Below are positions 29,002 through 39,068 of a DNA stretch of 64,000 nt, piece after piece. The first letter of the stretch is position 1. The number at the start of each line of letters is the position of its first letter. The stretch is from assembly GCA_964567575.1 (NCBI GenBank), contig CAZMMZ010000002.1, positions 26,004 to 90,003 on the forward strand, given 5' to 3'. The notes below the pieces were generated by a model. That model worked only from the letters and a program-made list of their open reading frames with translations. It did not search any database and had not been told where the DNA came from. Made by a program: the position numbers and the translations under genes. This stretch comes from Candidatus Undinarchaeota archaeon. GTDB taxonomy: Archaea > Undinarchaeota > Undinarchaeia > Undinarchaeales > UBA543.

Positions 29002-29373
29002 CTACTCATTCAATATTGTTCTTTCAAGTGGTAGTAATACCACAAAACCAAGGAAGTCGCCTTTGGATACGTTTCCATCTATAATAGATGTGAATCGAGC
29101 GTATTCTATCTTCCGGTCCATGTCTAATGGTTTTGGTTCTGTTTCACTTACTCCAGATACATTTCCATTTTTGTTCATCCTATATAGGGATGTAAAAACC
29201 ATATGGTTTGCAGGGATGTGTATGTTTTTCACTTTTATGGATTGGCATATCCCTTTCTTAATGATATGATCTTCATCTGCTATTAGATGTTCGACCTTGC
29301 CATGGTCTTGTTTAATACCCACAGCTTGTCTTTTACTTTTAAAATCCTGCCAAAATTTATCAATTGTTGTCAT
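29002..29373 (-). CDS. DUF22-like protein at the end of the ATP synthase operon
   Basis: LIADED, IKVKNIHIP, DGNVSKGDFLG; overlaps the atpD end, the position DUF22 occupies in several euryarchaeal operons. Confidence 0.65.
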   Translation of the reverse strand: MTTIDKFWQDFKSKRQAVGIKQDHGKVEHLIADEDHIIKKGICQSIKVKNIHIPANHMVFTSLYRMNKNGNVSGVSETEPKPLDMDRKIEYARFTSIIDGNVSKGDFLGFVVLLPLERTILNE

Positions 29374-30025
29374 TTAATGATACCTCTTTTTTCTTTGCCA
29401 ATTTTCCCTTGATTTTCTTTAATCGTGAAAAGTCTTCTCGTTCCATTTCATCTAAACGCATTCTAATGAATTTGCTAGTATTTTTCATTCGCGGAATCAC
29501 AATATATTCAAGAGCATTAACACGGCGTTTTGTTTTTTCAACTTCACTTGCAAGAAGTTCAATTGTTTTTTCAATTTCTGCCATTTGCACAACTAACTTG
29601 AGTGCGTTTTCAAATTTGCCAGCTGCTTCATCCAAACTAGCTGAAGTTGTTATTGGGCTGTATCCTCGGTTTGAAAGATTTCTATCTTCTTCATCTAATT
29701 TGATTTCCGGAACCTTAATCCCAATAATGTTTCTTGTTTGGAATTCAGCATTTGCAATTTCACGAACAGCCATTGCTGCGCTTGTAACTTCCATTGGTCC
29801 CATTATTGATTTTGCTTTAACAAGATCGCCGTAAGCATTTTTGAAATATTTTTCAGCATCATCACGGAGCGTAGCACCTTTTTTAATAATATCAAGAAAT
29901 TTCATGATAAGCGCATCTCGCTTTTCTTTCAGAAGCTTGTATCCTTTCTCCGCTAGCTTCGTCTTTTTCTTGAGCTGTATCAGCTCCATTCTTGTCGGGT
30001 TTATCCCCGCAATGAGGTCTGCCAT
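29360..30025 (-). CDS. atpD: A-type ATP synthase subunit D
   Basis: NPTRMEL, GYKLLKEKRD, EVEKTKRRVNALE, EMEREDFSRLK. Confidence 0.95.
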   Translation of the reverse strand: MADLIAGINPTRMELIQLKKKTKLAEKGYKLLKEKRDALIMKFLDIIKKGATLRDDAEKYFKNAYGDLVKAKSIMGPMEVTSAAMAVREIANAEFQTRNIIGIKVPEIKLDEEDRNLSNRGYSPITTSASLDEAAGKFENALKLVVQMAEIEKTIELLASEVEKTKRRVNALEYIVIPRMKNTSKFIRMRLDEMEREDFSRLKKIKGKLAKKKEVSLNDNN

Positions 30026-30033
30026 TTATTATT

Positions 30034-31416
30034 TTACTCCGGTTTCAAATATTTCTCAATGTGTTCTGGTTTGAGACGTTTCAATTCTTCTCTTGGTAAG
30101 ATGTTAAACATGTCCCAACACAAGTCGAGTGTTTGTTCAATTGTCCTGTTCTCATCTTTACCTTGAGTAACGAATCTCTTTTCAAACTCTTGAGCGAATT
30201 TCAAGAAAGATTTATCACGTTCTGAAAGTGCTTCTTCTCCAATAACAGCAACAAGATCCTGCAAACTTCTTCCTTCTGCATATGCAGAATAAGCCTGGTT
30301 TGAAACACTAGAATGATCCTCTCTTGTTTTGCCTGGTCCAATACCCTTGTTCATCAAACGAGACAAACAAGGAAGTACATCAACAGGTGGGAATACGCCT
30401 TTCTTATGCAATTCTCTTGAAAGAACAATCTGTCCCTCTGTAATGTATCCAGTTAAATCAGGAATTGGGTGTGTTATATCATCCTGAGGCATGGAAAGAA
30501 TTGGGAGCTGAGTGATTGAACCTTTTTGTCCCTCAATTTTTCCAGCACGTTCATACAAACATGCCAAATCAGTGTACATGTATCCTGGATAACCACGTCT
30601 TCCTGGAACTTCTTCCCGAGCTGCTGAAATTTCACGAAGAGCTTCACAATAGTTTGTCATGTCAGTTAGAATAACAAGAACATGCATTCCTTTTTCAAAC
30701 GCAAGATACTCAGCTGCTGTAAGTGCCGCTCTTGGAGTAATAATACGTTCAATTGTTGGATCGTTTGCCAAGTTGACAAACATAACTACATTTTCAAGAG
30801 CTCCTGATTTCTCAAAATCCTCTTTGAAAAATGCTGCTTCTTCGAAAGTAATTCCCATAGCTGCGAAAATAACAGCGAAGTTTTCCTTTGATCCAAGAAC
30901 TTTTGCTTGTCGCGCAATCTGAGCAGCAAGCTCGTTGTGCGGCAAACCAGATCCTGAGAAAATAGGAAGTTTCTGTCCTCGAACCAATGTGTTCATTCCA
31001 TCAATTGTTGAAACACCAGTTTGAATGAAATCCTCTGGGTATTCTCGAGATGTTGGATTAATTGGCGCACCGTTAATGTCAATGAATTTCTCAGCAACAA
31101 GTTTTGGGCCATTGTCTAGTGGTTCTCCTCGAGAGTTGAACACACGACCAAGCATGTCTTCAGCTACTGGGAGCATAACTCCTTTTCCAGTGAATCGAGT
31201 GCTTGTTTTGTCAGTGTCAAGACTTCGTGTTCCTTCAAAAACCTGAACAATTGCAGTTGAACCTGCAACTTCAAGAACCTGTCCAAAACGCTTTTCCTTT
31301 TCAGGTGATTTAATTTCAACAAGTTCATTGTAAGTTACTCCTTCAACGCCTTCAACAACAATTAAAGGTCCACTAACTTCTTTTACTGTAGTATATTCTT
31401 TGTTTTTGTCTGTCAT
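30034..31416 (-). CDS. atpB: A-type ATP synthase subunit B
   Basis: [55 protein letters not shown]. Confidence 0.97.
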
Positions 31417-33188
31417 TATTCTTGCACCCCCGTTACAATTTTTTCACGCGTCATCAAGTTGTTAATACCTTCTTCAAACTTGTGTTTGATGTCTCTGATT
31501 TTTGCGCTAACTTTTGATTCTTCAAGATATTTAACAGCTGCAATAGCTTCAATAACAGGGATTTTTGAAATACCTGTATTAGCAATTCCTGCTTCTACTG
31601 CTTCCTGTGCTTTATGATGTTTCCAAAGAATAAGTTCAAGTAAATCAAATTGTTTCTTTGGTGAAGTGTAGGTATCAACCTCATCATACGCATTTTGCTG
31701 CAAGAAATCCTCTCTCAAGGATCTTGCGGTTTCAAGAAGAAGTTTGTCTTTTTCTGGTAATGCATCTGGTCCAACCAGTCTGACAATTTCTTGAAGTTCA
31801 GCTTCTCTTTGCAAAATAGTCATTGCTTCTGTTTTTGCTTCGAGCCAGTTTCCAACTTCTTTATTCCACCAGCTAGCTACATTGTCATTATACAAGGAAT
31901 ATGATGTAAGCCAGTTGATACTTGGGAAGTGACGTTTGTTTGCAAGATCTGCATCAAGCGCCCAGAAAACTTTACAAATACGTAGTGTATTTTGTGTAAC
32001 TGGTTCTGAGAAATCCCCTCCAGGAGGACTGACAGCTCCAATAACAGAAACTGAGCCTTTCTTTTCTTCTGTACCAAGTGTTTGAACAACACCAGCACGT
32101 TCATAGAATTGAGCAATTCTTGGTGCGAGGTAGGCTGGATAACCTTCCTCACCAGGCATCTCTTCAAGACGTGAACTGATTTCTCTCATAGCTTCTGCCC
32201 AACGGGATGTTGAGTCAGCCATGAGCGCAACATTGTAACCCATGTCTCGGTAATACTCAGCAATTGTAATACCTGTGTAAATTGAAGCTTCACGAGCTGC
32301 TACAGGCATGTTTGAAGTGTTTGCAATAAGTACAGTTCTTTCAAGAAGTGCTTTTCCAGTTCTTGGATCTTTCAAGTGTGGGAATTCTTTTAATACATCA
32401 GTCATTTCATTTCCACGCTCACCACATCCAATGTAGATAATAATATCTGCATCAGACCACTTTGCAAGTTGTTGCTGCATGACAGTTTTTCCAGCACCGA
32501 AAGGTCCTGGGATTGAACTTGCTCCGCCTTTAGCAACTGGGAAGAAAGTGTCAACAATTCTTTGTCCAGTAATCAATGGGATTGTTGGTTTGAATTTTTC
32601 AGTATATGGTCTTGGAATACGAACTGGCCATTTCTGTGCCATCTGAACTGCTTTTCCACCAATCTCAGCAATAGTTGTATGAACTGTGTATTTTCCTTCG
32701 CTAACAATTGAAGTAATTTCTCCTTTCATTTTTGGAGGTACCATAACTTTGTGTTCAACAACTTCAGATTCTTTGACAATACCAAGAACGTCTCCACCAA
32801 CTACTTTTGCACCTTTCTTAGCTACTGGTTTAAAATCCCAAGTCTTTTTTGTATCAAGAGTTGGAACGTCAATACCACGTGTGATGAAAGTACCAGCTTT
32901 CTTTTTGATATTCTCTAAAGGTCTGGCTATCCCATCATAGGTAGTTCCCATTAAACCTGGTCCAAGTTCGACAGAGAGAGGCATGCCTGTGTTTTCTACA
33001 GGTTGCCCTGGTCCGATTCCTGCAGTCTCCTCATAAACCTGAATTGTGGCTGTGTCACCATTGAGCTGAATGACCTCTCCTAGAAGGCCTTCTTCTCCGA
33101 CTTTGACAACGTCGTACATCTTAGAACCTTTCATGTTGTCTGCAACAATGACTGGTCCCGCTATTCGTGTAATCTTTCCTTTTATCAC
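31416..33188 (-). CDS. atpA: A-type ATP synthase subunit A (GTG start)
   Basis: Walker [36 protein letters not shown]; no intein. Confidence 0.97.
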
Positions 33189-33189
33189 T

Positions 33190-33519
33190 TTACTGTTCCT
33201 CCGTTTTCTTTGAAGTAATATCAATGCCAACCGCCTTGCGTATCATTTCTTGGATTTCTTTTTTTGCATGTCCTGTAGTGCCTGTTTTATCAGGGACTTC
33301 TATCACCACTGGGTGCGGTTTGCTTCTGAGTTTTCGAATCTGTTCATCTGCATAACTTGCATGATTCTCTGAAATTATAATAATGTCATATTCTTTCTGA
33401 AGTAGTTCTTCCAAAACTTGAGGAGTATCATTGATTTTATCAACACGAGCAACTGCTGTAACTCCAGCAAGTCTGAAACCAGTTGTCATATCTTTATCGC
33501 CTATCACACAAATGTTCAT
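33190..33519 (-). CDS. atpF: A-type ATP synthase subunit F
   Basis: [31 protein letters not shown]. Confidence 0.93.
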
Positions 33520-34670
33520 GCTGAAACACCTCCAGTTTCTGGATCTATTTTATTGGTACTGAAATTTGCAGCAATTCTGATTTTCTTTGCATCTCTTTCT
33601 TTTCCTGTAATCATATTCAAAGCAGGTCCAATTCCTAATCCATATTTTATTGATAATTGTTTGACAGTTTTCTCATAATATTCATCAATTGCTTTTTCTA
33701 TTTGATAAAGAGATCCTGTTTCTTTGAAGCTTGTTGAAACTTCTGATAAAACGTCTGAGTAAGGTGTTCCCTCAAGTTGTGATAAAATTTCGTCGACTGT
33801 TTCTGCTTTTGCAATTGCTTTAAGTTTTTCTTGTGTAAATCCATAAGAAGCATCAATAAGGAAGTTGTCTATGTTGTCAATTTTTCCTCCACTGCTTCTA
33901 AGTCTGAGCATTGTTTTCAAATTGAGAATATCTATTTTTGTTCCAAACATAATTGTTACTGCAACCATGTTCTTGTCTTTTGAAATTGCTATTTTTTTAT
34001 GAGCTTTTTCATAAACATATTTGTCAATTGCCATTTCTAAAGGAATTAAATTCTTTTGTTCCTGAACTTTTGGCATAGCTGCGGATACGATTTTTCCATA
34101 CTCTGTTGTTTCTAATTCAGAAGTTGCTTCTTCAATTGTTTTTGATTCAACTAATGTTTTCAAAACATGTTCTTTTAATGTTCCAATTTGATGTATTAAT
34201 TCAGCACGTTTTTCTATTGGAGTTCCATTTTGTATGGATCTGAATACCATTTTTATATTTTTAGCATCGTAAATCTTCAGAAGATCTTTTATTACATCCT
34301 TCATTTCTCCTGGTACAGTTCTTGTAACTTTTCCATAAATTTCAGCGGTGTGTTGATTAAGTGCTTTTTCAAGATCTTCTTCTGAATTTGGATTTTCCAT
34401 CTTTGTTAAATAAGGACCATAATCTGTGTTTTCAAGAGTGCTAATGCAATCGATTTGTGTTTTGCTATTTTTTAATTCTTCAATTTTTTGTTTTTTTAGA
34501 AGGCCAGCTTCCATTGCACGTATTTTTGCATTTGTATACATGTATGGAGCAAGGTCTACAATATTCATAATAACTGGAAGTATTAGCACTAAGAATCCTG
34601 CAACAGCTATAGCGACAATGATTGCCACAACCGGTGCGGATAAGACTAATGTCTCCAGTGAAAAGTTCAT
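33516..34670 (-). CDS. atpC: A-type ATP synthase subunit C
   Basis: YMYTNAKIRAMEAGLL, IDILNLKT; operon position. Confidence 0.88.
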   Translation of the reverse strand: MNFSLETLVLSAPVVAIIVAIAVAGFLVLILPVIMNIVDLAPYMYTNAKIRAMEAGLLKKQKIEELKNSKTQIDCISTLENTDYGPYLTKMENPNSEEDLEKALNQHTAEIYGKVTRTVPGEMKDVIKDLLKIYDAKNIKMVFRSIQNGTPIEKRAELIHQIGTLKEHVLKTLVESKTIEEATSELETTEYGKIVSAAMPKVQEQKNLIPLEMAIDKYVYEKAHKKIAISKDKNMVAVTIMFGTKIDILNLKTMLRLRSSGGKIDNIDNFLIDASYGFTQEKLKAIAKAETVDEILSQLEGTPYSDVLSEVSTSFKETGSLYQIEKAIDEYYEKTVKQLSIKYGLGIGPALNMITGKERDAKKIRIAANFSTNKIDPETGGVSA

Positions 34671-35257
34671 TATTTATTTTTGAACAGAATTGCTGCTACG
34701 TCCCCCCTTATTTTTTCAGAATCTCTTTCCATGATTCTCTCAATACTATTATCAATTTTCAAATTTCCATCTGCACTTTCAATTATAACTCCGCCTGCAA
34801 TTTCTACTGTTTTCCCAAGTTTTGATTTAAGTTCTTGTGCTAATTCTTTTCCATACGCTTCATTTTCTTGATTAAAACATAGTTTGCTGTTTTCTCCTAT
34901 TGCATCTATACCTTCTTTTGCTAGAATTTTTAGCGCGGTTTTATATCTGCCTGTTCCTTGTTTTGCCATTCTATCCAATTGTGTTTCAGCTTTTTCAATT
35001 GCTGAAGTTATTGTATTGTCTCTGCTTCTGAGGTGAATGTTGTGTGCTTCAAGATTTGTTGAAGAAAGTATTCTTTGCTGTTCTCGGTCTGCATTCTTTT
35101 TTCCAGTTTCTTTTATTACAGATTTTTCAGCATTGATTTTTTCTTTTTCAGTTTTTCTAAGCTCAGTTGTTTTCTCTTTTGCATCGCTAATAATTTTATT
35201 AGCTTCTGTTATTGCTTCTTTCATTATTTTCTGATTAATTTTTGTTATTCCTTCCAT
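34670..35257 (-). CDS. atpE: A-type ATP synthase subunit E
   Basis: Coiled-coil N-terminus, GGVIIESADG...IDNSIE. Confidence 0.9.
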   Translation of the reverse strand: MEGITKINQKIMKEAITEANKIISDAKEKTTELRKTEKEKINAEKSVIKETGKKNADREQQRILSSTNLEAHNIHLRSRDNTITSAIEKAETQLDRMAKQGTGRYKTALKILAKEGIDAIGENSKLCFNQENEAYGKELAQELKSKLGKTVEIAGGVIIESADGNLKIDNSIERIMERDSEKIRGDVAAILFKNK

Positions 35258-35267
35258 TTTATTCACC

Positions 35268-36728
35268 TCAACCGAATAGGCCAACTCCTAACATGATTAA
35301 TATTGCTATAAGCAAACCAAAGATAGCATATGTTTCTGGAATAACTGAAAGCACAAGGCCTTTTCCAGTTGCTTCTTTGTTTTTCACTGTTGCTCCAATT
35401 GCTCCACCAGCAACTATTCCTTGTCCAATAGCTGATAATCCAGCAAATCCTACTGCACATCCTGCTGCTATTGATGCTAATCCTGCTACGCTTGTTAGTG
35501 ATCCTGCTTTTCCAGCTCCAACAAGACCTACTGCTGCAAGTACGAGAATTGCGACAATGAATCCGTAAAGTGCTTGTGTTTCTGGGAGTACAGAGAAAAC
35601 CATACTCTTACCAAACACTTCAGGCTTTTCAGAAACTGCTCCAACACCTGCTGCTGCTGCGATTCCTTGTCCAATAGCTGATAGTCCTGCTACTCCGACT
35701 GCGATACCTGCACCAACACCTGCTAGTCCAATTGTTTCTGTTATTCCTTGACCACCACCTGATCCAAGTATTCCTGCACCAAGTAATATTAAAATAGCAA
35801 TAAGCATTCCGTAAATTGCTTGTGTTTCTGGTAGTACTGAGAAAACCATTCCTTTTCCCATCATCTTATCGTCTTCAGCAACTGTACTAACTGCAGCTCC
35901 AGCTGCAATTCCTTGTCCAATAGCTGATAATCCTGCTACACCAACTGCAAGACCTGCTCCAACAGCTGCTATTCCTGCACCCATTTTTAATGATCCTACA
36001 ATTGTTCCTCCAATCATTCCTGTTGAAACAAGAATTAGGATTGCGACAATGAATCCGTAAAGTGCCTGTGTTTCTGGAAGTACTGAGAAAACCATTCCTT
36101 TTCCAAACATGTCTTCTTTTTCAGAAACTGCTCCAATAGCTGAACTTGCTGCGATTCCCTGTCCAAGACCTGAAAGTCCTGCTACACCAACTGCGATTCC
36201 AGCACCAAGTGCTGCGAGTCCAATTGGTAATGGGAGTTTTGCAGATGTTGTTCCAATAATTCCTGCACCAAGTAAAATTAAAACAGAAATAAGCATTCCA
36301 TAAATTGCTTGTGTTTCTGGTAATACTGAGAAAACCATTCCTTTTCCCATCATCTTATCATTTTCAGCAACTGCGCCGATTGCAGATCCAGAAGTTATTC
36401 CTTGTCCAATAGCTGAAAGTCCTGCGAAACCAACAGCAATACCTGCTCCAAGACATGCAATTGCAGTACCGATTGAAATATCGGCTGTGGCAGTTCCTAC
36501 AATTCCTGTGCCCATTAAAATAAGTATAGCAATAAGGAAGCCGTAAATTCCCTGAGTTTGTGGAAGCGCTTGGAAAATAAGTGCTGTTGAGAATTTTTCT
36601 GGATCTTCTGTAATAGCTCCAGCTCCAGCAGCTCCTGCGATACCTGCTCCAATTCCACTAGCTAGTCCTGCTACTCCGACTGCAATTCCAGCTCCTATTG
36701 CAGCAATTGCAATTTCTGCAGTTGCCAT
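35268..36728 (-). CDS. atpK: A-type ATP synthase subunit K (c) with six fused hairpins (12 TM)
   Basis: Six ~81-aa units; C-helix motifs PQTQGIY, 4x PETQA(I/L)Y, PETYAIF; GQG in hairpins 2-6. Confidence 0.95.
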   Translation of the reverse strand: MATAEIAIAAIGAGIAVGVAGLASGIGAGIAGAAGAGAITEDPEKFSTALIFQALPQTQGIYGFLIAILILMGTGIVGTATADISIGTAIACLGAGIAVGFAGLSAIGQGITSGSAIGAVAENDKMMGKGMVFSVLPETQAIYGMLISVLILLGAGIIGTTSAKLPLPIGLAALGAGIAVGVAGLSGLGQGIAASSAIGAVSEKEDMFGKGMVFSVLPETQALYGFIVAILILVSTGMIGGTIVGSLKMGAGIAAVGAGLAVGVAGLSAIGQGIAAGAAVSTVAEDDKMMGKGMVFSVLPETQAIYGMLIAILILLGAGILGSGGGQGITETIGLAGVGAGIAVGVAGLSAIGQGIAAAAGVGAVSEKPEVFGKSMVFSVLPETQALYGFIVAILVLAAVGLVGAGKAGSLTSVAGLASIAAGCAVGFAGLSAIGQGIVAGGAIGATVKNKEATGKGLVLSVIPETYAIFGLLIAILIMLGVGLFG

Positions 36729-36781: not shown

Positions 36782-38743
36782 TTATTTTTCCTCTATTGTA
36801 GTATAATCTCGACTTACTGAAAACGGTGAATATTTTCTTCCACCGCCACTGTAGAATTTACTAAAGAATTCTACATATTGTAAACGAAGTCCGTGAACAA
36901 AAGCACCGAGTGCATTCATAGCAAAACTGAATGCATGACCTACTGAAAATATGATTATTGCAAGAAGTATTCCAAGGAATGGAACTCCTGAGACCATTCC
37001 TGCAAGTAAATTCATTGTCATTGCAATACCACCTGTTGCAAGACATAAAGCAAGAAGACGTGTGAAAGACATAACATCTCCAAAGAATCCTGTTACATCG
37101 AATAATCCTATAACTCCTTTAAATCTGATAAGTATTACTAATGAAAGTCCTGCAAGTACGTATGCTACATATTTGAGTCCACCTGCTAATTCTATTCCTA
37201 GCATTGGACCAAGAAGAATGAATGCTGCAGCTTGTAGGGAGAACCAAATTATCTGTCCGTGTAACATTTCAAGTTTCTTTCCCTGTTTCCAATTATTAAT
37301 TGCTCCAAGAATAAGTCCAAGATTCAAATGAGCAATTCCAACAAATAATGAAACTTTTAGAATAACAAGTGGGTTTGTTAATGGATCAACCCATGGGGCA
37401 AGGTTTGCAGGTTCTAATCCCCAAATATATTTTGGAAGATCTCCCAGATAACTTCCTGTAAGAACCCCAAAGAACATTGTTGAAAGACCAACTGCAGAAA
37501 CAATTGTTCCAACTTCTTTCATACTTGCATTGTGTTTTCCAAGTTTTACTAGTAGGAAAGCCCCTCCTATAAATAAAAGAAGTCCATAAACAAAATCAGT
37601 AAGCATCAACCCTGCGTAAAGAATCAAAAGTGGTGTTATAAGTGTTGTTGGATCAATTTCATTATATTTTGGAAGAGAATACATCTCTGTCATCATTTCG
37701 AATGGCTTTGCAATCCATTTATTTTTCAAAAGTACTGGCACATCATCGTCTTCAGTTGGTTCTTCTATTTTTATATGGCAACAATTATGTGAGGATTTTT
37801 GAATAGATTCTGTGATTTTTTTTGCATCTTTTTTTGGAACCCATCCATGCATTATGAATGTTTTTTTAGTTCCTGCCATTTTTCCCAGAGCATCTATTCG
37901 TTCTTTCTCAATAACAAGTTGTTCTCGTATTGTGCTAAGATTTAAACTCCATTTAGTGTTGAGTTTTTTCAGTTTCTCTTTTTTATTTTTAATATCCTCT
38001 TCTAATTCTTTTATTTTATCTTCAATACTTGTTTTTGTTTCTTTAACAGAAGGAATATCAAATTCTTCAAAGCCATAAGTTCTTAGAACAAGATTTGTTT
38101 TATCTTTATCATCAAGCATTACAGTTATTGTAGCAATACTTGTTTCTTGATCTAATTCTTCAATAATTATATGAGCGTCAGGTGTTTCGTGTGTAACATC
38201 TTTTACAAATTCTTCCTTTTTTTCATTTTGAATTTTTCCAGCAAAAGTATAAACACGACTTGAATAACCAACGTTGTGATAATCAACATTTATTTTTTCT
38301 AACAGTTCTTTTATATTTTTTAAATTTTTGTGTTGCTGGATATCGTTTTCTAAGCTTTCAATTTTTGAACTAATTGCTCCAACTTTAATATCAAGTTCTT
38401 TTATGATTTCACTATTTTCTTTAATAACTGCGTTTGGATCATTGTTTATGACTTTTGTTTTCTTTTCAATAGCTTCACTTCCAAACATTCCGCTTTTCTG
38501 TTCTTCTGAACTTTTAAGAATATCATTAATCCTGTCTAATTTTATTAAAAGTGGTGCTAATTCTGTTATTTCTGATGTGTGTGCAGTTCCTTCAAGAAAA
38601 CTTTTCCACTCTGGATGTTCAAGAAATTCGCTTGCATCTTCAAGTTGCATTGCACTAGTTTCATGAAGTGCCCTAATAACATCGTCTCTGTACTTGTTCA
38701 AGGCGATGAACTTGAACTTTTGCATGCGTGCTGGTATAAACAT
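36782..38743 (-). CDS. atpI: A-type ATP synthase subunit I (a)
   Basis: PKYNEIDPT, GDVMSFTRLLAL (stator Arg), HGLRLQYVEFFSKFY. Confidence 0.95.
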   Translation of the reverse strand: MFIPARMQKFKFIALNKYRDDVIRALHETSAMQLEDASEFLEHPEWKSFLEGTAHTSEITELAPLLIKLDRINDILKSSEEQKSGMFGSEAIEKKTKVINNDPNAVIKENSEIIKELDIKVGAISSKIESLENDIQQHKNLKNIKELLEKINVDYHNVGYSSRVYTFAGKIQNEKKEEFVKDVTHETPDAHIIIEELDQETSIATITVMLDDKDKTNLVLRTYGFEEFDIPSVKETKTSIEDKIKELEEDIKNKKEKLKKLNTKWSLNLSTIREQLVIEKERIDALGKMAGTKKTFIMHGWVPKKDAKKITESIQKSSHNCCHIKIEEPTEDDDVPVLLKNKWIAKPFEMMTEMYSLPKYNEIDPTTLITPLLILYAGLMLTDFVYGLLLFIGGAFLLVKLGKHNASMKEVGTIVSAVGLSTMFFGVLTGSYLGDLPKYIWGLEPANLAPWVDPLTNPLVILKVSLFVGIAHLNLGLILGAINNWKQGKKLEMLHGQIIWFSLQAAAFILLGPMLGIELAGGLKYVAYVLAGLSLVILIRFKGVIGLFDVTGFFGDVMSFTRLLALCLATGGIAMTMNLLAGMVSGVPFLGILLAIIIFSVGHAFSFAMNALGAFVHGLRLQYVEFFSKFYSGGGRKYSPFSVSRDYTTIEEK

Positions 38744-38750
38744 TTTACAG

Positions 38751-39068
38751 TTACTTCTCTTGTAATATGTGTTTTATCACAGTTTCAACAGCTTTTTCAA
38801 TATGTGCTTCTGATTTTTTCTCATCACTTTCAATATCTTTTTTTATTTTTTGAAGTGAGTGTGAAGATTCTTTTTCAGTACTATCTTTAGTTGTAGCTAA
38901 TAATTCTTCTGCTTCATCTTGTGCTTTTTTCAAAATTAGTTCTTTTTCTTTCTGAACATCTTTGGATGCATTGTCCAAGATCTTCTCAGCCTCTTTATGG
39001 GCTTTTTCCACAAGTGCTTCCGCCTTGTGTTCTGCTTCTTTTATTTCAACAAGTGCTTGTTTTGGCAT
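38751..39068 (-). CDS. atpH: A-type ATP synthase subunit H
   Basis: EIKEAEHKAE coiled coil; first gene of the operon. Confidence 0.85.
   Translation of the reverse strand: MPKQALVEIKEAEHKAEALVEKAHKEAEKILDNASKDVQKEKELILKKAQDEAEELLATTKDSTEKESSHSLQKIKKDIESDEKKSEAHIEKAVETVIKHILQEK

What the first reader, a model, noticed from the sequence alone, without database searches (positions are those of the whole stretch)
35268..36728. ATP synthase c subunit with six fused hairpins and five Na+-type sites
Seen: 486 aa, six hairpins. Hairpin 1 has Gln instead of Glu (PQTQ), hairpins 2-5 have Q...PETQAxY, hairpin 6 has PETYAIF. Established: archaeal c subunits have 1, 2, 3 (Methanococcales, first hairpin without Glu) or 13 (Methanopyrus) hairpins, and Q/E/T/Q/Y is the Na+ signature. 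I do not know of a six-hairpin form. Inference: two copies would give a 12-hairpin ring with 10 sites (about 3.3 Na+/ATP), fixing rotor stoichiometry genetically.
Basis: partly seen in the sequence, partly recalled or inferred. Interest (0 to 1): 0.82.

Follow-up and report, generated by a model that had tools for sequence, protein, structure and literature searches.

The report
Six-hairpin half-ring ATPase rotor subunit
This tiny marine archaeon encodes its ATP synthase rotor as one protein of six fused hairpins with five sodium-type sites; two copies probably close a 12-hairpin ring, a design common in public genomes but not described in any paper I could search.

Summary
Window 35268-36728 (minus strand) encodes a 486-aa K/c subunit with six ATP-synt_C hairpins, inside a complete H-I-K-E-C-F-A-B-D A-type ATPase operon. 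It is the only c-type gene found in this 82%-complete Undinarchaeota genome.

Hairpin 1 has no site (A28, Q57). Hairpins 2-6 each carry Gln and Glu and receive Thr/Gln/Tyr from the preceding hairpin, giving five complete Na+-type sites. The odd residues of hairpin 6 (Y467, F470) face the blank seam.

It is not an assembly artefact. The repeats are at most 85% identical, and two sister species have the same six position-matched hairpins.

The dimer idea gains comparative support:
- Among relatives, apparently whole genes have mostly 6, 12 or 13 hairpins.
- Some Thermoplasmata genes are exact 6+6 or 6+3+3 fusions.
- A same-order relative has 12 hairpins in one chain.
- None exceeds 15.
- A two-copy model closes head-to-tail (ipSAE 0.72, best control 0.00).

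Ring size, ion and direction remain untested.

The six-hairpin form is not unique. It is the commonest multi-hairpin class, present in cultured Methanomicrobiales, and this scan flagged it before on other DNA. Searchable papers still list only 1, 2, 3 or 13 hairpins.

The parts
35268..36728 (-). atpK/ahaK: 486-aa rotor (proteolipid) subunit made of six fused two-helix hairpins
   Evidence: ORF; six PF00137 stretches, E 1.6e-96; the only PF00137 gene found in the genome
36495..36716 (-). Hairpin 1 (aa 5-78), no ion site: A28 at the helix-1 Gln position and Q57 (codon 36558-36560) at the carboxylate position. It keeps T58, Q59 and Y62, which serve the site of hairpin 2
   Evidence: Signature AQTQY. 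Aligns to hairpin 1 of E. hirae NtpK, which likewise lacks the carboxylate
36252..36473 (-). Hairpin 2 (aa 86-159): Q109, E138 (codon 36315-36317), T139, Q140, Y143
   Evidence: Signature QETQY; these residues are invariant in alignment A1
36009..36230 (-). Hairpin 3 (aa 167-240): Q190, E219 (codon 36072-36074), T220, Q221, Y224
35763..35984 (-). Hairpin 4 (aa 249-322): Q272, E301 (codon 35826-35828), T302, Q303, Y306. Its DNA is 85% identical to hairpin 2
35517..35738 (-). Hairpin 5 (aa 331-404): Q354, E383 (codon 35580-35582), T384, Q385, Y388. Its DNA is 79% identical to hairpin 3
35271..35492 (-). Hairpin 6 (aa 413-486): Q436 and E465 (codon 35334-35336) form a live site. T466, Y467 and F470 are degenerate donor residues that face the blank seam
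   Evidence: Signature QETYF. In the dimer model, residues 413-482 touch residues 2-77 of the other copy
38751..39068 (-). atpH (peripheral-stalk G/H-like subunit)
   Evidence: Weak V-ATPase_G_2 match, E 7.6e-05, below the Pfam cut-off; named mainly from its position in the operon
36782..38743 (-). atpI (stator a-type subunit, the ion channel partner of the ring)
   Evidence: PF01496, E 1.7e-27. A homologue lies directly upstream of the K gene in nearly all related loci
34670..35284 (-). atpE
   Evidence: PF01991, E 2.1e-19
33516..34670 (-). atpC (d-type subunit that couples the ring to the central stalk)
   Evidence: PF01992, E 4.4e-67
33190..33519 (-). atpF
   Evidence: PF01990, E 2.2e-22
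31416..33230 (-). atpA (catalytic subunit)
   Evidence: PF00006, PF16886, PF22919, PF02874
30034..31416 (-). atpB
   Evidence: PF00006, PF22919, PF02874
29360..30025 (-). atpD (central stalk)
   Evidence: PF01813, E 8.2e-62

Best explanation
The gene encodes the sole rotor subunit of this Undinarchaeota archaeon's A-type rotary ATPase, as one chain of six fused hairpins (12 membrane helices).

Each ion site lies between neighbouring hairpins. Gln (helix 1) and Glu (helix 2) of hairpin n combine with Thr, Gln and Tyr from helix 2 of hairpin n-1. This gives five complete Na+-type sites, at hairpins 2-6. The junction from hairpin 6 to hairpin 1 is blank on both sides (Y467/F470 on one side, A28/Q57 on the other).

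Two chains most likely join head-to-tail into a closed 12-hairpin ring with 10 sites and two blank seams, which means 10 Na+ per turn, or about 3.3 per ATP. Because hairpins come in blocks of six, the ring size and the ion/ATP ratio are largely set by the gene and not by assembly.

Shown here: the gene, its architecture, the residue pattern and its conservation, and the operon.

Inferred: two copies per ring (about 65-70% likely), Na+ as the coupling ion, and the direction of work. In a fermentative symbiont without a visible respiratory chain, the enzyme may mainly pump Na+ out at the cost of ATP.
For: Architecture: six PF00137 stretches, six helical hairpins in the AF2 model, and a full H-I-K-E-C-F-A-B-D operon. 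It is the only PF00137 gene in the genome.

Site rule: the ProAD supplement. The alignment to E. hirae NtpK, where a carboxylate-less first hairpin precedes the carboxylate-bearing second one, places the query's first site on the NtpK site.

Junction statistics over 217 related sequences:
- A complete donor hairpin is followed by a live hairpin in 1323 of 1323 junctions.
- Every dead hairpin (72 of 72) follows a degenerate donor.
- The last-to-first seam behaves the same way: 200 are degenerate plus dead, and 8 Methanopyrus-type seams are complete plus live. This is what is expected if last and first hairpins are neighbours in a ring.

Ring of 12:
- Apparently whole genes have mostly 6, 12 or 13 hairpins.
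- L021 and L024 are exact 6+6 fusions that keep both blank seams. L016 and L051 are 6+3+3.
- L007, from the same order, has 12 hairpins in one 978-aa chain.
- Among proteins of 852-2430 aa, none has more than 15 hairpins.
- T. thermophilus entries hold 12 single-hairpin K chains each.
- The two-copy model scores ipSAE 0.72 against a best control of 0.00. That mark was reached by 20 of 30 solved pairs of one chain and by 1 of 23 proteins solved as single chains. Partner pLDDT is at least 86 and the runs share at least 97% of contacts. Both copies use both hairpin 1 and hairpin 6, so the ring is closed.

Direction: no PF00361 antiporter-type subunit was found in the 82%-complete genome. Undinarchaeota are described as fermentative (PMC7414124).
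Against: Nothing here measures ring stoichiometry.
- Apparently whole genes with 4, 5, 7 (4+3), 8 and 9 (6+3) hairpins also exist. Five, 7, 8 and 9 do not divide 12.
- The E. hirae K ring has 10 two-hairpin chains per entry, so A/V-type stators can accept rings larger than 12 hairpins.
- The complex model may pass because solved c-rings were in its training data, and two chains offered alone tend to be closed on each other.
- My survey is ranked by similarity to a six-hairpin query, so forms with fewer than six hairpins are under-sampled. Many of the sequences are kin, not independent cases.
- Sequence motifs predict Na+ binding but do not prove it.
- Reads were not available.
Confidence: 0.68

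Rival explanations
1. The same six-hairpin subunit forms a larger ring of three or more copies (18 hairpins with 15 sites, 5 Na+ per ATP, or more). That is a high-ratio rotor suited to ATP synthesis at very low driving force.
For: The closest solved relative, E. hirae NtpK, has 10 two-hairpin chains per entry, that is 20 hairpins. Five-, 7- and 9-hairpin genes show that 12 is not a universal frame.
Against: No gene with 18 or 24 hairpins was found among proteins of 852-2430 aa; the maximum is 15. Natural fusions add up to 12 (6+6, 6+3+3). A same-order relative carries exactly 12 hairpins in one chain. The two-copy model closes with both seams formed.
Confidence: 0.17
2. The ring carries H+, or both H+ and Na+, despite the Na+-type motif.
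For: Ion choice cannot be read with certainty from sequence. Sister families in the same order have single-hairpin K subunits of the ET[IL]VIF type, which lack the Na+ ligands, so the lineage has changed ion type at least once.
Against: All five sites have the full Q...E-T-Q-x-x-Y set. These residues are invariant across six-hairpin proteins from several phyla. The first site aligns residue for residue with the Na+ site region of NtpK. The close relatives come from marine samples (Tara source names).
Confidence: 0.15
3. The six copies are an assembly artefact, produced by expansion or collapse of a repeat.
For: The gene is internally repetitive. In relatives the repeats do break assemblies: the G003 gene is split over two contig ends, and G005 has a 101-nt exact internal repeat.
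Against: In this gene the copies are only 47-85% identical in DNA and the longest exact repeat is 36 nt. Two sister species have six hairpins each, and each hairpin is most similar to the one at the same position. The identical protein is recorded on 6 contigs.
Confidence: 0.02

Closest known systems
[quoted passage not shown]
   Same: Same six-hairpin plan and same site signature: blank first hairpin, four full hairpins, last hairpin with Glu but degenerate donors. The gene sits directly after atpI. Identity is 52-57%.
   Different: Those genomes also carry one or two single-hairpin K genes elsewhere, whereas here the six-hairpin gene is the only one found. Their last hairpin reads ETFAIF, not ETYAIF. 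None has been described or characterised in the papers I could search.
Methanocaldococcus jannaschii-type AtpK, three fused hairpins (triplication cited in PMC2359735)
   Same: Same design logic of fused hairpins. The best NCBIfam match is the 220-position model NF004913. Three-hairpin units with a blank first hairpin occur as modules of the 6+3+3 fusions.
   Different: It would have one full internal hairpin where this protein has four, so it would be a quarter-ring rather than a half-ring on a 12-hairpin frame. That the first hairpin of the M. jannaschii protein lacks the carboxylate is from memory and was not re-checked on its sequence here.
Methanopyrus kandleri AtpK, 13 hairpins, proposed monomeric rotor (Lolkema & Boekema 2003, as cited in PMC2359735)
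   Same: Many fused hairpins carrying the Na+ motif. Methanopyrus-type proteins turned up in my own search (P0148, P0149).
   Different: All 13 hairpins, including the seam, carry a carboxylate, and one chain is taken to be the whole ring. Here there are six hairpins, a blank seam, and a need for at least two chains.
Enterococcus hirae NtpK (PDB 2bl2), Na+-binding K ring
   Same: It is the closest solved relative by sequence (E 2e-19) and by fold (TM 0.76 over the target, 33% identity). NtpK looks like the 'first' plus 'last' hairpin of this family with nothing in between, and its single site corresponds to the hairpin 1/2 site here.
   Different: It has two hairpins and one site per chain, and 10 chains per entry. 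No solved chain covers more than about two of the six hairpins (TM over the query at most 0.29).
Single-chain 12-hairpin K subunits: 6+6 fusions in Thermoplasmata (L021, L024) and the 1+10+1 form in a same-order Undinarchaeota genome (L007)
   Same: Built from the same hairpin types. The 6+6 form is two copies of this gene's plan joined in one chain, with both blank seams kept.
   Different: They are covalently complete rings with 10 or 11 sites. The Thermoplasmata forms also carry an N-terminal exported PKD domain.
Thermus thermophilus V/A-ATPase K ring (for example 6qum)
   Same: A solved A/V-type rotor with 12 K chains of 73-102 residues per entry. Each of these chains aligns to only one hairpin of the query. 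This shows that a 12-hairpin ring fits this class of enzyme.
   Different: It consists of twelve separate chains. Its helix-2 motif is ETLVIF, which lacks the Na+ ligands.

Membership tests
A/V-type ATPase proteolipid subunit K/c (Pfam PF00137, ATP-synt_C) | Two-helix hairpin domain matching ATP-synt_C | tested here: met
   Six stretches, E 1.6e-96, 316.9 bits against a cut-off of 24; helical hairpins in the model
A/V-type ATPase proteolipid subunit K/c (Pfam PF00137, ATP-synt_C) | Membrane-buried carboxylate in the second helix | tested here: met
   E138, E219, E301, E383 and E465 are present. Hairpin 1 has Q57 instead
A/V-type ATPase proteolipid subunit K/c (Pfam PF00137, ATP-synt_C) | Encoded in an A-type ATPase operon next to the a-type subunit I | tested here: met
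   H-I-K-E-C-F-A-B-D order confirmed by Pfam
A/V-type ATPase proteolipid subunit K/c (Pfam PF00137, ATP-synt_C) | Assembles into a closed membrane ring | tested here: inconclusive
   The two-copy model closes (ipSAE 0.72, best control 0.00; the mark was reached by 20 of 30 solved pairs of one chain and 1 of 23 proteins solved as single chains). This is a prediction and may rest on likeness to solved rings
Na+-binding c/K subunits (Mulkidjanian 2008 motif, as applied in ProAD, PMC11738941) | [Q/E] in helix 1 plus E in helix 2 of hairpin n, together with [ST][STQ]xxY in helix 2 of hairpin n-1 | tested here: met
   Met for the five sites at hairpins 2-6. Not met at the hairpin 6 to hairpin 1 seam
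Na+-binding c/K subunits (Mulkidjanian 2008 motif, as applied in ProAD, PMC11738941) | Measured Na+ binding or transport | not testable with these tools
   Needs biochemistry: Na+-protected DCCD labelling, 22Na+ transport
Fused multi-hairpin K subunits with a blank first hairpin (the plan I attribute from memory to M. jannaschii AtpK) | First hairpin without carboxylate, followed by hairpins with carboxylate, in one chain | tested here: met
   Signature AQTQY - QETQY x4 - QETYF. The pattern is shared by 200 of 217 related sequences
Monomeric single-chain rotor (M. kandleri type) | One chain holds enough hairpins for a whole ring (12-13 or more) | tested here: not met
   Only six hairpins. At least two chains are needed

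The most novel reading that the evidence does not exclude
The six-hairpin K subunit is the half-ring module of a widespread, undescribed family of hard-wired 12-hairpin A-type rotors, built as 3+3+3+3, 6+6, 6+3+3 or one chain of 12. Each chain or module start puts one blank seam in the ring, so the number of seams (4, 2, 3 or 1) sets the ion/ATP ratio at 8/3, 10/3, 9/3 or 11/3. This would be a natural gearbox written in gene architecture. Lineages such as Undinarchaeota would have shifted gear (5-, 6-, at least 10- and 12-hairpin genes within one phylum) and ion type (H+-type single hairpins in sister families).
Probability: 0.4. Interest if true: 0.72.

Novelty: new variant of a known kind. 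Interest (0 to 1): 0.58.

Why it matters
The ion/ATP ratio of a rotary ATPase is set by the number of sites in its ring. For separate c subunits that number can only be learned from structures.

Fused hairpins put part of the number into the gene. If two six-hairpin chains make the ring, this organism's ratio (10 Na+ per 3 ATP) can be read from its genome. The 3/6/12-hairpin series would then show how archaea tune the ratio in steps of one site.

The published list of archaeal c subunits (1, 2, 3, 13 hairpins) would need extending. The commonest fused form, six, is also found in cultured methanogens, so the prediction can be tested directly by cryo-EM.

For this DPANN symbiont it is the only rotor gene found, so its energy coupling depends on it.

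Tried and rejected
- Literature: seven full-text searches found no description of a six-hairpin c/K subunit. Two key reviews (Mayer & Mueller 2014; Grueber et al. 2014) are not held, so a mention there cannot be excluded. ProAD (PMC11738941) groups K subunits by hairpin number but shows only 1- and 2-hairpin cases.
- Ancient or repeatedly evolved six-hairpin plan: this could not be settled. The first and last hairpins match by position across phyla, but the internal hairpins resemble each other more within a lineage than between lineages. That fits either separate internal amplification or concerted evolution.
- Foreign operon: not supported. A-subunit identity falls smoothly with taxonomic distance inside the phylum, 86% in the genus, 67-69% in the next family and 59-64% beyond.
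- Assembly artefact: rejected.
- Respiratory Na+ or H+ pumps in the genome: only PF00361 (absent) and the membrane pyrophosphatase (present) were searched. Rnf, decarboxylases and others were not searched.

Full report
**1. What is in the sequence**

The minus strand of window 35268-36728 holds one ORF of 486 codons. Pfam finds six ATP-synt_C (PF00137) stretches, with E 1.6e-96 for the whole protein. NCBIfam's best matches are models named 'V-type ATP synthase subunit K'.

Taking 74-residue units anchored on the carboxylate position, the six hairpins align without gaps. I read five positions in each: the helix-1 Gln, the carboxylate, and the residues at +1, +2 and +5 from it. The signatures are:
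- Hairpin 1: A28, Q57, T, Q, Y
- Hairpins 2-5: Q, E, T, Q, Y
- Hairpin 6: Q, E, T, Y, F

It omits only that hairpin 1 has also lost the helix-1 Gln. An AlphaFold2 model built on ten homologues is confident (pLDDT 88.7, pTM 0.90) and shows six helical hairpins.

**2. Context**

The gene sits in a complete A-type ATPase operon, all on the minus strand:

| Gene | Coordinates |
|---|---|
| H | 38751-39068 |
| I | 36782-38743 |
| K | 35268-36728 |
| E | 34670-35284 |
| C | 33516-34670 |
| F | 33190-33519 |
| A | 31416-33230 |
| B | 30034-31416 |
| D | 29360-30025 |

The assembly holds 745 kb in 18 contigs and is 82% complete. The six PF00137 hits inside this ORF are the only ones in it. The closest relatives in public genomes are named 'archaeon UBA543' and 'Candidatus Undinarchaeota archaeon', so this is a DPANN archaeon of the phylum Undinarchaeota.

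**3. Not an artefact**

- Hairpin DNA copies are 47-85% identical. The best pairs are hairpins 2 and 4 (85%) and hairpins 3 and 5 (79%).
- The longest exact internal repeat is 36 nt.
- Two other species of the same genus, from separately deposited MAG records, have six hairpins. Each hairpin is most similar to the one at the same position, at 76-86% DNA identity.
- The identical protein is on record from 6 contigs.
- Reads could not be consulted.
- Hairpins 2 and 4 are slightly more alike within this genome (85%) than hairpin 2 is to its orthologues (81%). This hints at some gene conversion.

**4. How the sites are built**

In multi-hairpin subunits the published rule is that a site needs Gln/Glu and Glu from hairpin n, plus [ST][STQ]xxY from helix 2 of hairpin n-1 (ProAD supplement, PMC11738941).

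The alignment to the solved Na+ rotor subunit NtpK of Enterococcus hirae (2bl2) fits this rule. NtpK's carboxylate-less first hairpin (PGTQGLY) aligns with hairpin 1 here (PQTQGIY). Its second hairpin (Q...ETYAIL) aligns with hairpin 2.

Applied here, hairpins 2-6 each make a complete Na+-type site. The deviant residues of hairpin 6 (Y467, F470) are donors for a site that does not exist, namely that of a following hairpin 1 (A28, Q57). The protein thus has five full sites and one seam that is blank on both sides.

Across 217 related sequences this coupling is strict:
- A complete donor is followed by a live hairpin in 1323 of 1323 internal junctions.
- All 72 dead internal hairpins follow a degenerate donor.
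- The last-to-first 'seam' follows the same rule: 200 are degenerate plus dead, and 8 Methanopyrus-type seams are complete plus live.

That is the pattern expected if the last hairpin of a chain lies next to a first hairpin in a ring. These sequences are kin, so the counts overstate independence.

**5. How many copies per ring**

*Within the phylum.* A survey of the 17 genomes, followed by fetching the genes, gave:
- Six hairpins in the window's genus.
- Five hairpins in G005 and 12 hairpins in one 978-aa chain in G006, both in a neighbouring family.
- At least 10 hairpins in G003, where the gene is split over two contig ends that overlap by 88 nt.
- Single hairpins in the other genomes.

*Across GTDB species genomes.* A pattern scan confirmed 285 stretches that encode a relative; the best 79 distinct loci were kept. 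In those loci, genes not touching a contig end have 6 hairpins (about 48 loci), 12 (9 loci), 13 (10 loci) or rarely 5. Counts of 7, 9 and 10 occur only at contig ends.

*Natural fusions.*
- L021 and L024 (Thermoplasmata) are exact tandem fusions of two six-hairpin units. Both blank seams are kept: 12 hairpins, 10 sites.
- L016 and L051 are 6+3+3.

*Upper limit.* A search restricted to proteins of 852-2430 aa found 37 relatives, all of 853-1186 aa. They have 11-13 hairpins, or 15 in an H+-type Promethearchaeota group. Nothing near 18 or 24 hairpins appeared.

*Structural precedent.* Thermus thermophilus entries hold 12 short K chains each, and each chain aligns to only one hairpin of the query.

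*Model.* A two-copy model gave ipSAE 0.72 (three runs, 0.71-0.72) against a best control of 0.00. The mark was reached by 20 of 30 solved pairs of one chain and by 1 of 23 proteins solved as single chains. Partner pLDDT is at least 86 and the runs share at least 97% of contacts. In both copies, both residues 2-77 and residues 413-482 are in the interface, so the ring is closed head-to-tail. Such a pass can come from likeness to solved c-rings, so I weigh it lightly.

Together these make a 2 x 6 ring with 10 sites (3.3 ions per ATP) the best reading.

*Against it.*
- Apparently whole genes with 4, 5, 7 (4+3), 8 and 9 (6+3) hairpins exist.
- The E. hirae ring has 20 hairpins.
- My sampling favours genes with at least six hairpins.

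**6. Direction and ion**

The Na+ motif is complete, and it is invariant across six-hairpin proteins from Undinarchaeota, Methanomicrobiales and an unclassified 'Halobacteriota archaeon' MAG.

Sister families in the same order carry single-hairpin K subunits with ET[IL]VIF, which lack the Na+ ligands. A-subunit identity nevertheless declines smoothly with taxonomy. The rotor gene thus changed type inside the order without obvious replacement of the catalytic head.

The genome shows no antiporter-type respiratory subunit (PF00361) but does have a membrane pyrophosphatase. Undinarchaeota are described as fermentative (PMC7414124). I therefore think ATP-driven Na+ export is at least as likely as ATP synthesis. 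This is inference only.

**7. Comparison with what is known**

- The closest solved structure is NtpK (sequence E 2e-19; fold TM 0.76 over the target). No solved chain covers more than about two of the six hairpins.
- In print, archaeal c subunits are listed as having '1, 2, 3, or even 13 hairpins' (PMC9171764, 2022). A 2026 preprint says the number 'can vary widely' but names only Methanopyrus.
- I found no paper on a six-hairpin form. Two reviews could not be read.
- In databases, six is by far the commonest fused class: 139 of 220 intact sequences in my combined set, which contains duplicates and is biased toward the query's length. It occurs in cultured Methanomicrobiales, where it coexists with single-hairpin K genes, and in Thermoplasmata, where it carries an exported PKD domain.

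**8. Earlier notes of this scan**

After my own survey I looked up earlier notes of this scan. The scan had already flagged, on other DNA, six-hairpin K genes (two separate notes, one with an added PKD domain), a 6+6 single-chain rotor and a 13-hairpin DPANN rotor. These agree with what I found independently.

**9. Verdict**

It is a new (undescribed) variant of the known fused-hairpin K subunit, not a new kind of machine, and it is not unique to this genome.

Its main value is comparative. Together with the 12-hairpin and 6+6 relatives, it makes a hard-wired 12-hairpin ring with a gene-encoded ion/ATP ratio a testable proposal.

Noticed in passing
L007:3010-5943 on the reverse strand (G006:C2, about 96058-98991); also L018: A same-order Undinarchaeota genome encodes a 978-aa K subunit with 12 hairpins in one chain: one blank hairpin and 11 Na+-type sites. 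Internal hairpins alternate between two types, which points to growth by two-hairpin units. Its longest exact internal repeat is 71 nt.
   Followed up: partly
L010:2938-3873 (G003:C7 end) and L009:2-1624 on the reverse strand (G003:C17 end): In another Undinarchaeota genome the K gene is split across two contig ends that overlap exactly by 88 nt. Joined, it would have at least 10 hairpins. The true number may be higher if repeats collapsed in assembly.
   Followed up: partly
L008:2131-3345 (G005:C3): A five-hairpin K gene (405 aa) in the same genus as the 12-hairpin one. It contains a 101-nt exact internal repeat, so a collapsed assembly cannot be excluded. Five does not divide 12.
   Followed up: partly
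L092, L093, L096 (G010, G015, G009; same order as the window): Sister families have single-hairpin K subunits with AEQ...PET[IL]VIF, which lack the Na+ ligands (H+ type). A different class-level relative (L094, G001) has a Na+-type single hairpin. The order has therefore switched both ion type and hairpin number.
   Followed up: partly
P0154-P0157 (one named Promethearchaeota archaeon): K subunits of 1108-1147 aa with 15 fused hairpins. All carry Glu in an EALY context (H+ type) and there is no blank seam. This is the longest fused rotor seen here.
   Followed up: no
P0064, L019, L022 and many other Thermoplasmata loci; L021 and L024 for the 6+6 form: The six-hairpin (or 6+6) K subunits of Thermoplasmata begin with a signal-peptide-like segment and a PKD domain. 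This would place an extracellular domain on a rotating ring.
   Followed up: no
window 31416-33230 (-): The listed TTG start of atpA gives a basic N-terminal extension that overlaps atpF. In both sister species the aligned stretch contains one in-frame TGA, so the true start is probably further downstream.
   Followed up: no
window 29002-29373 (-): A 123-aa DUF22 (PF01629) gene overlaps the end of atpD and may be co-transcribed with the ATPase operon.
   Followed up: no
G000:C3:60358-62286 (-), outside the window: The genome encodes a membrane-bound pyrophosphatase (H_PPase, E 2.5e-271). This is a second possible ion pump beside the ATPase in a genome where no PF00361 respiratory subunit was found.
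   Followed up: no
L097 (G007:C117, a 1-kb contig): The only PF00137 hit in G007 is an F-type-looking c subunit (…AFCEAIAIYALV…) on a 1024-nt contig. It may be contamination, and that genome's real K gene may be unassembled.
   Followed up: no
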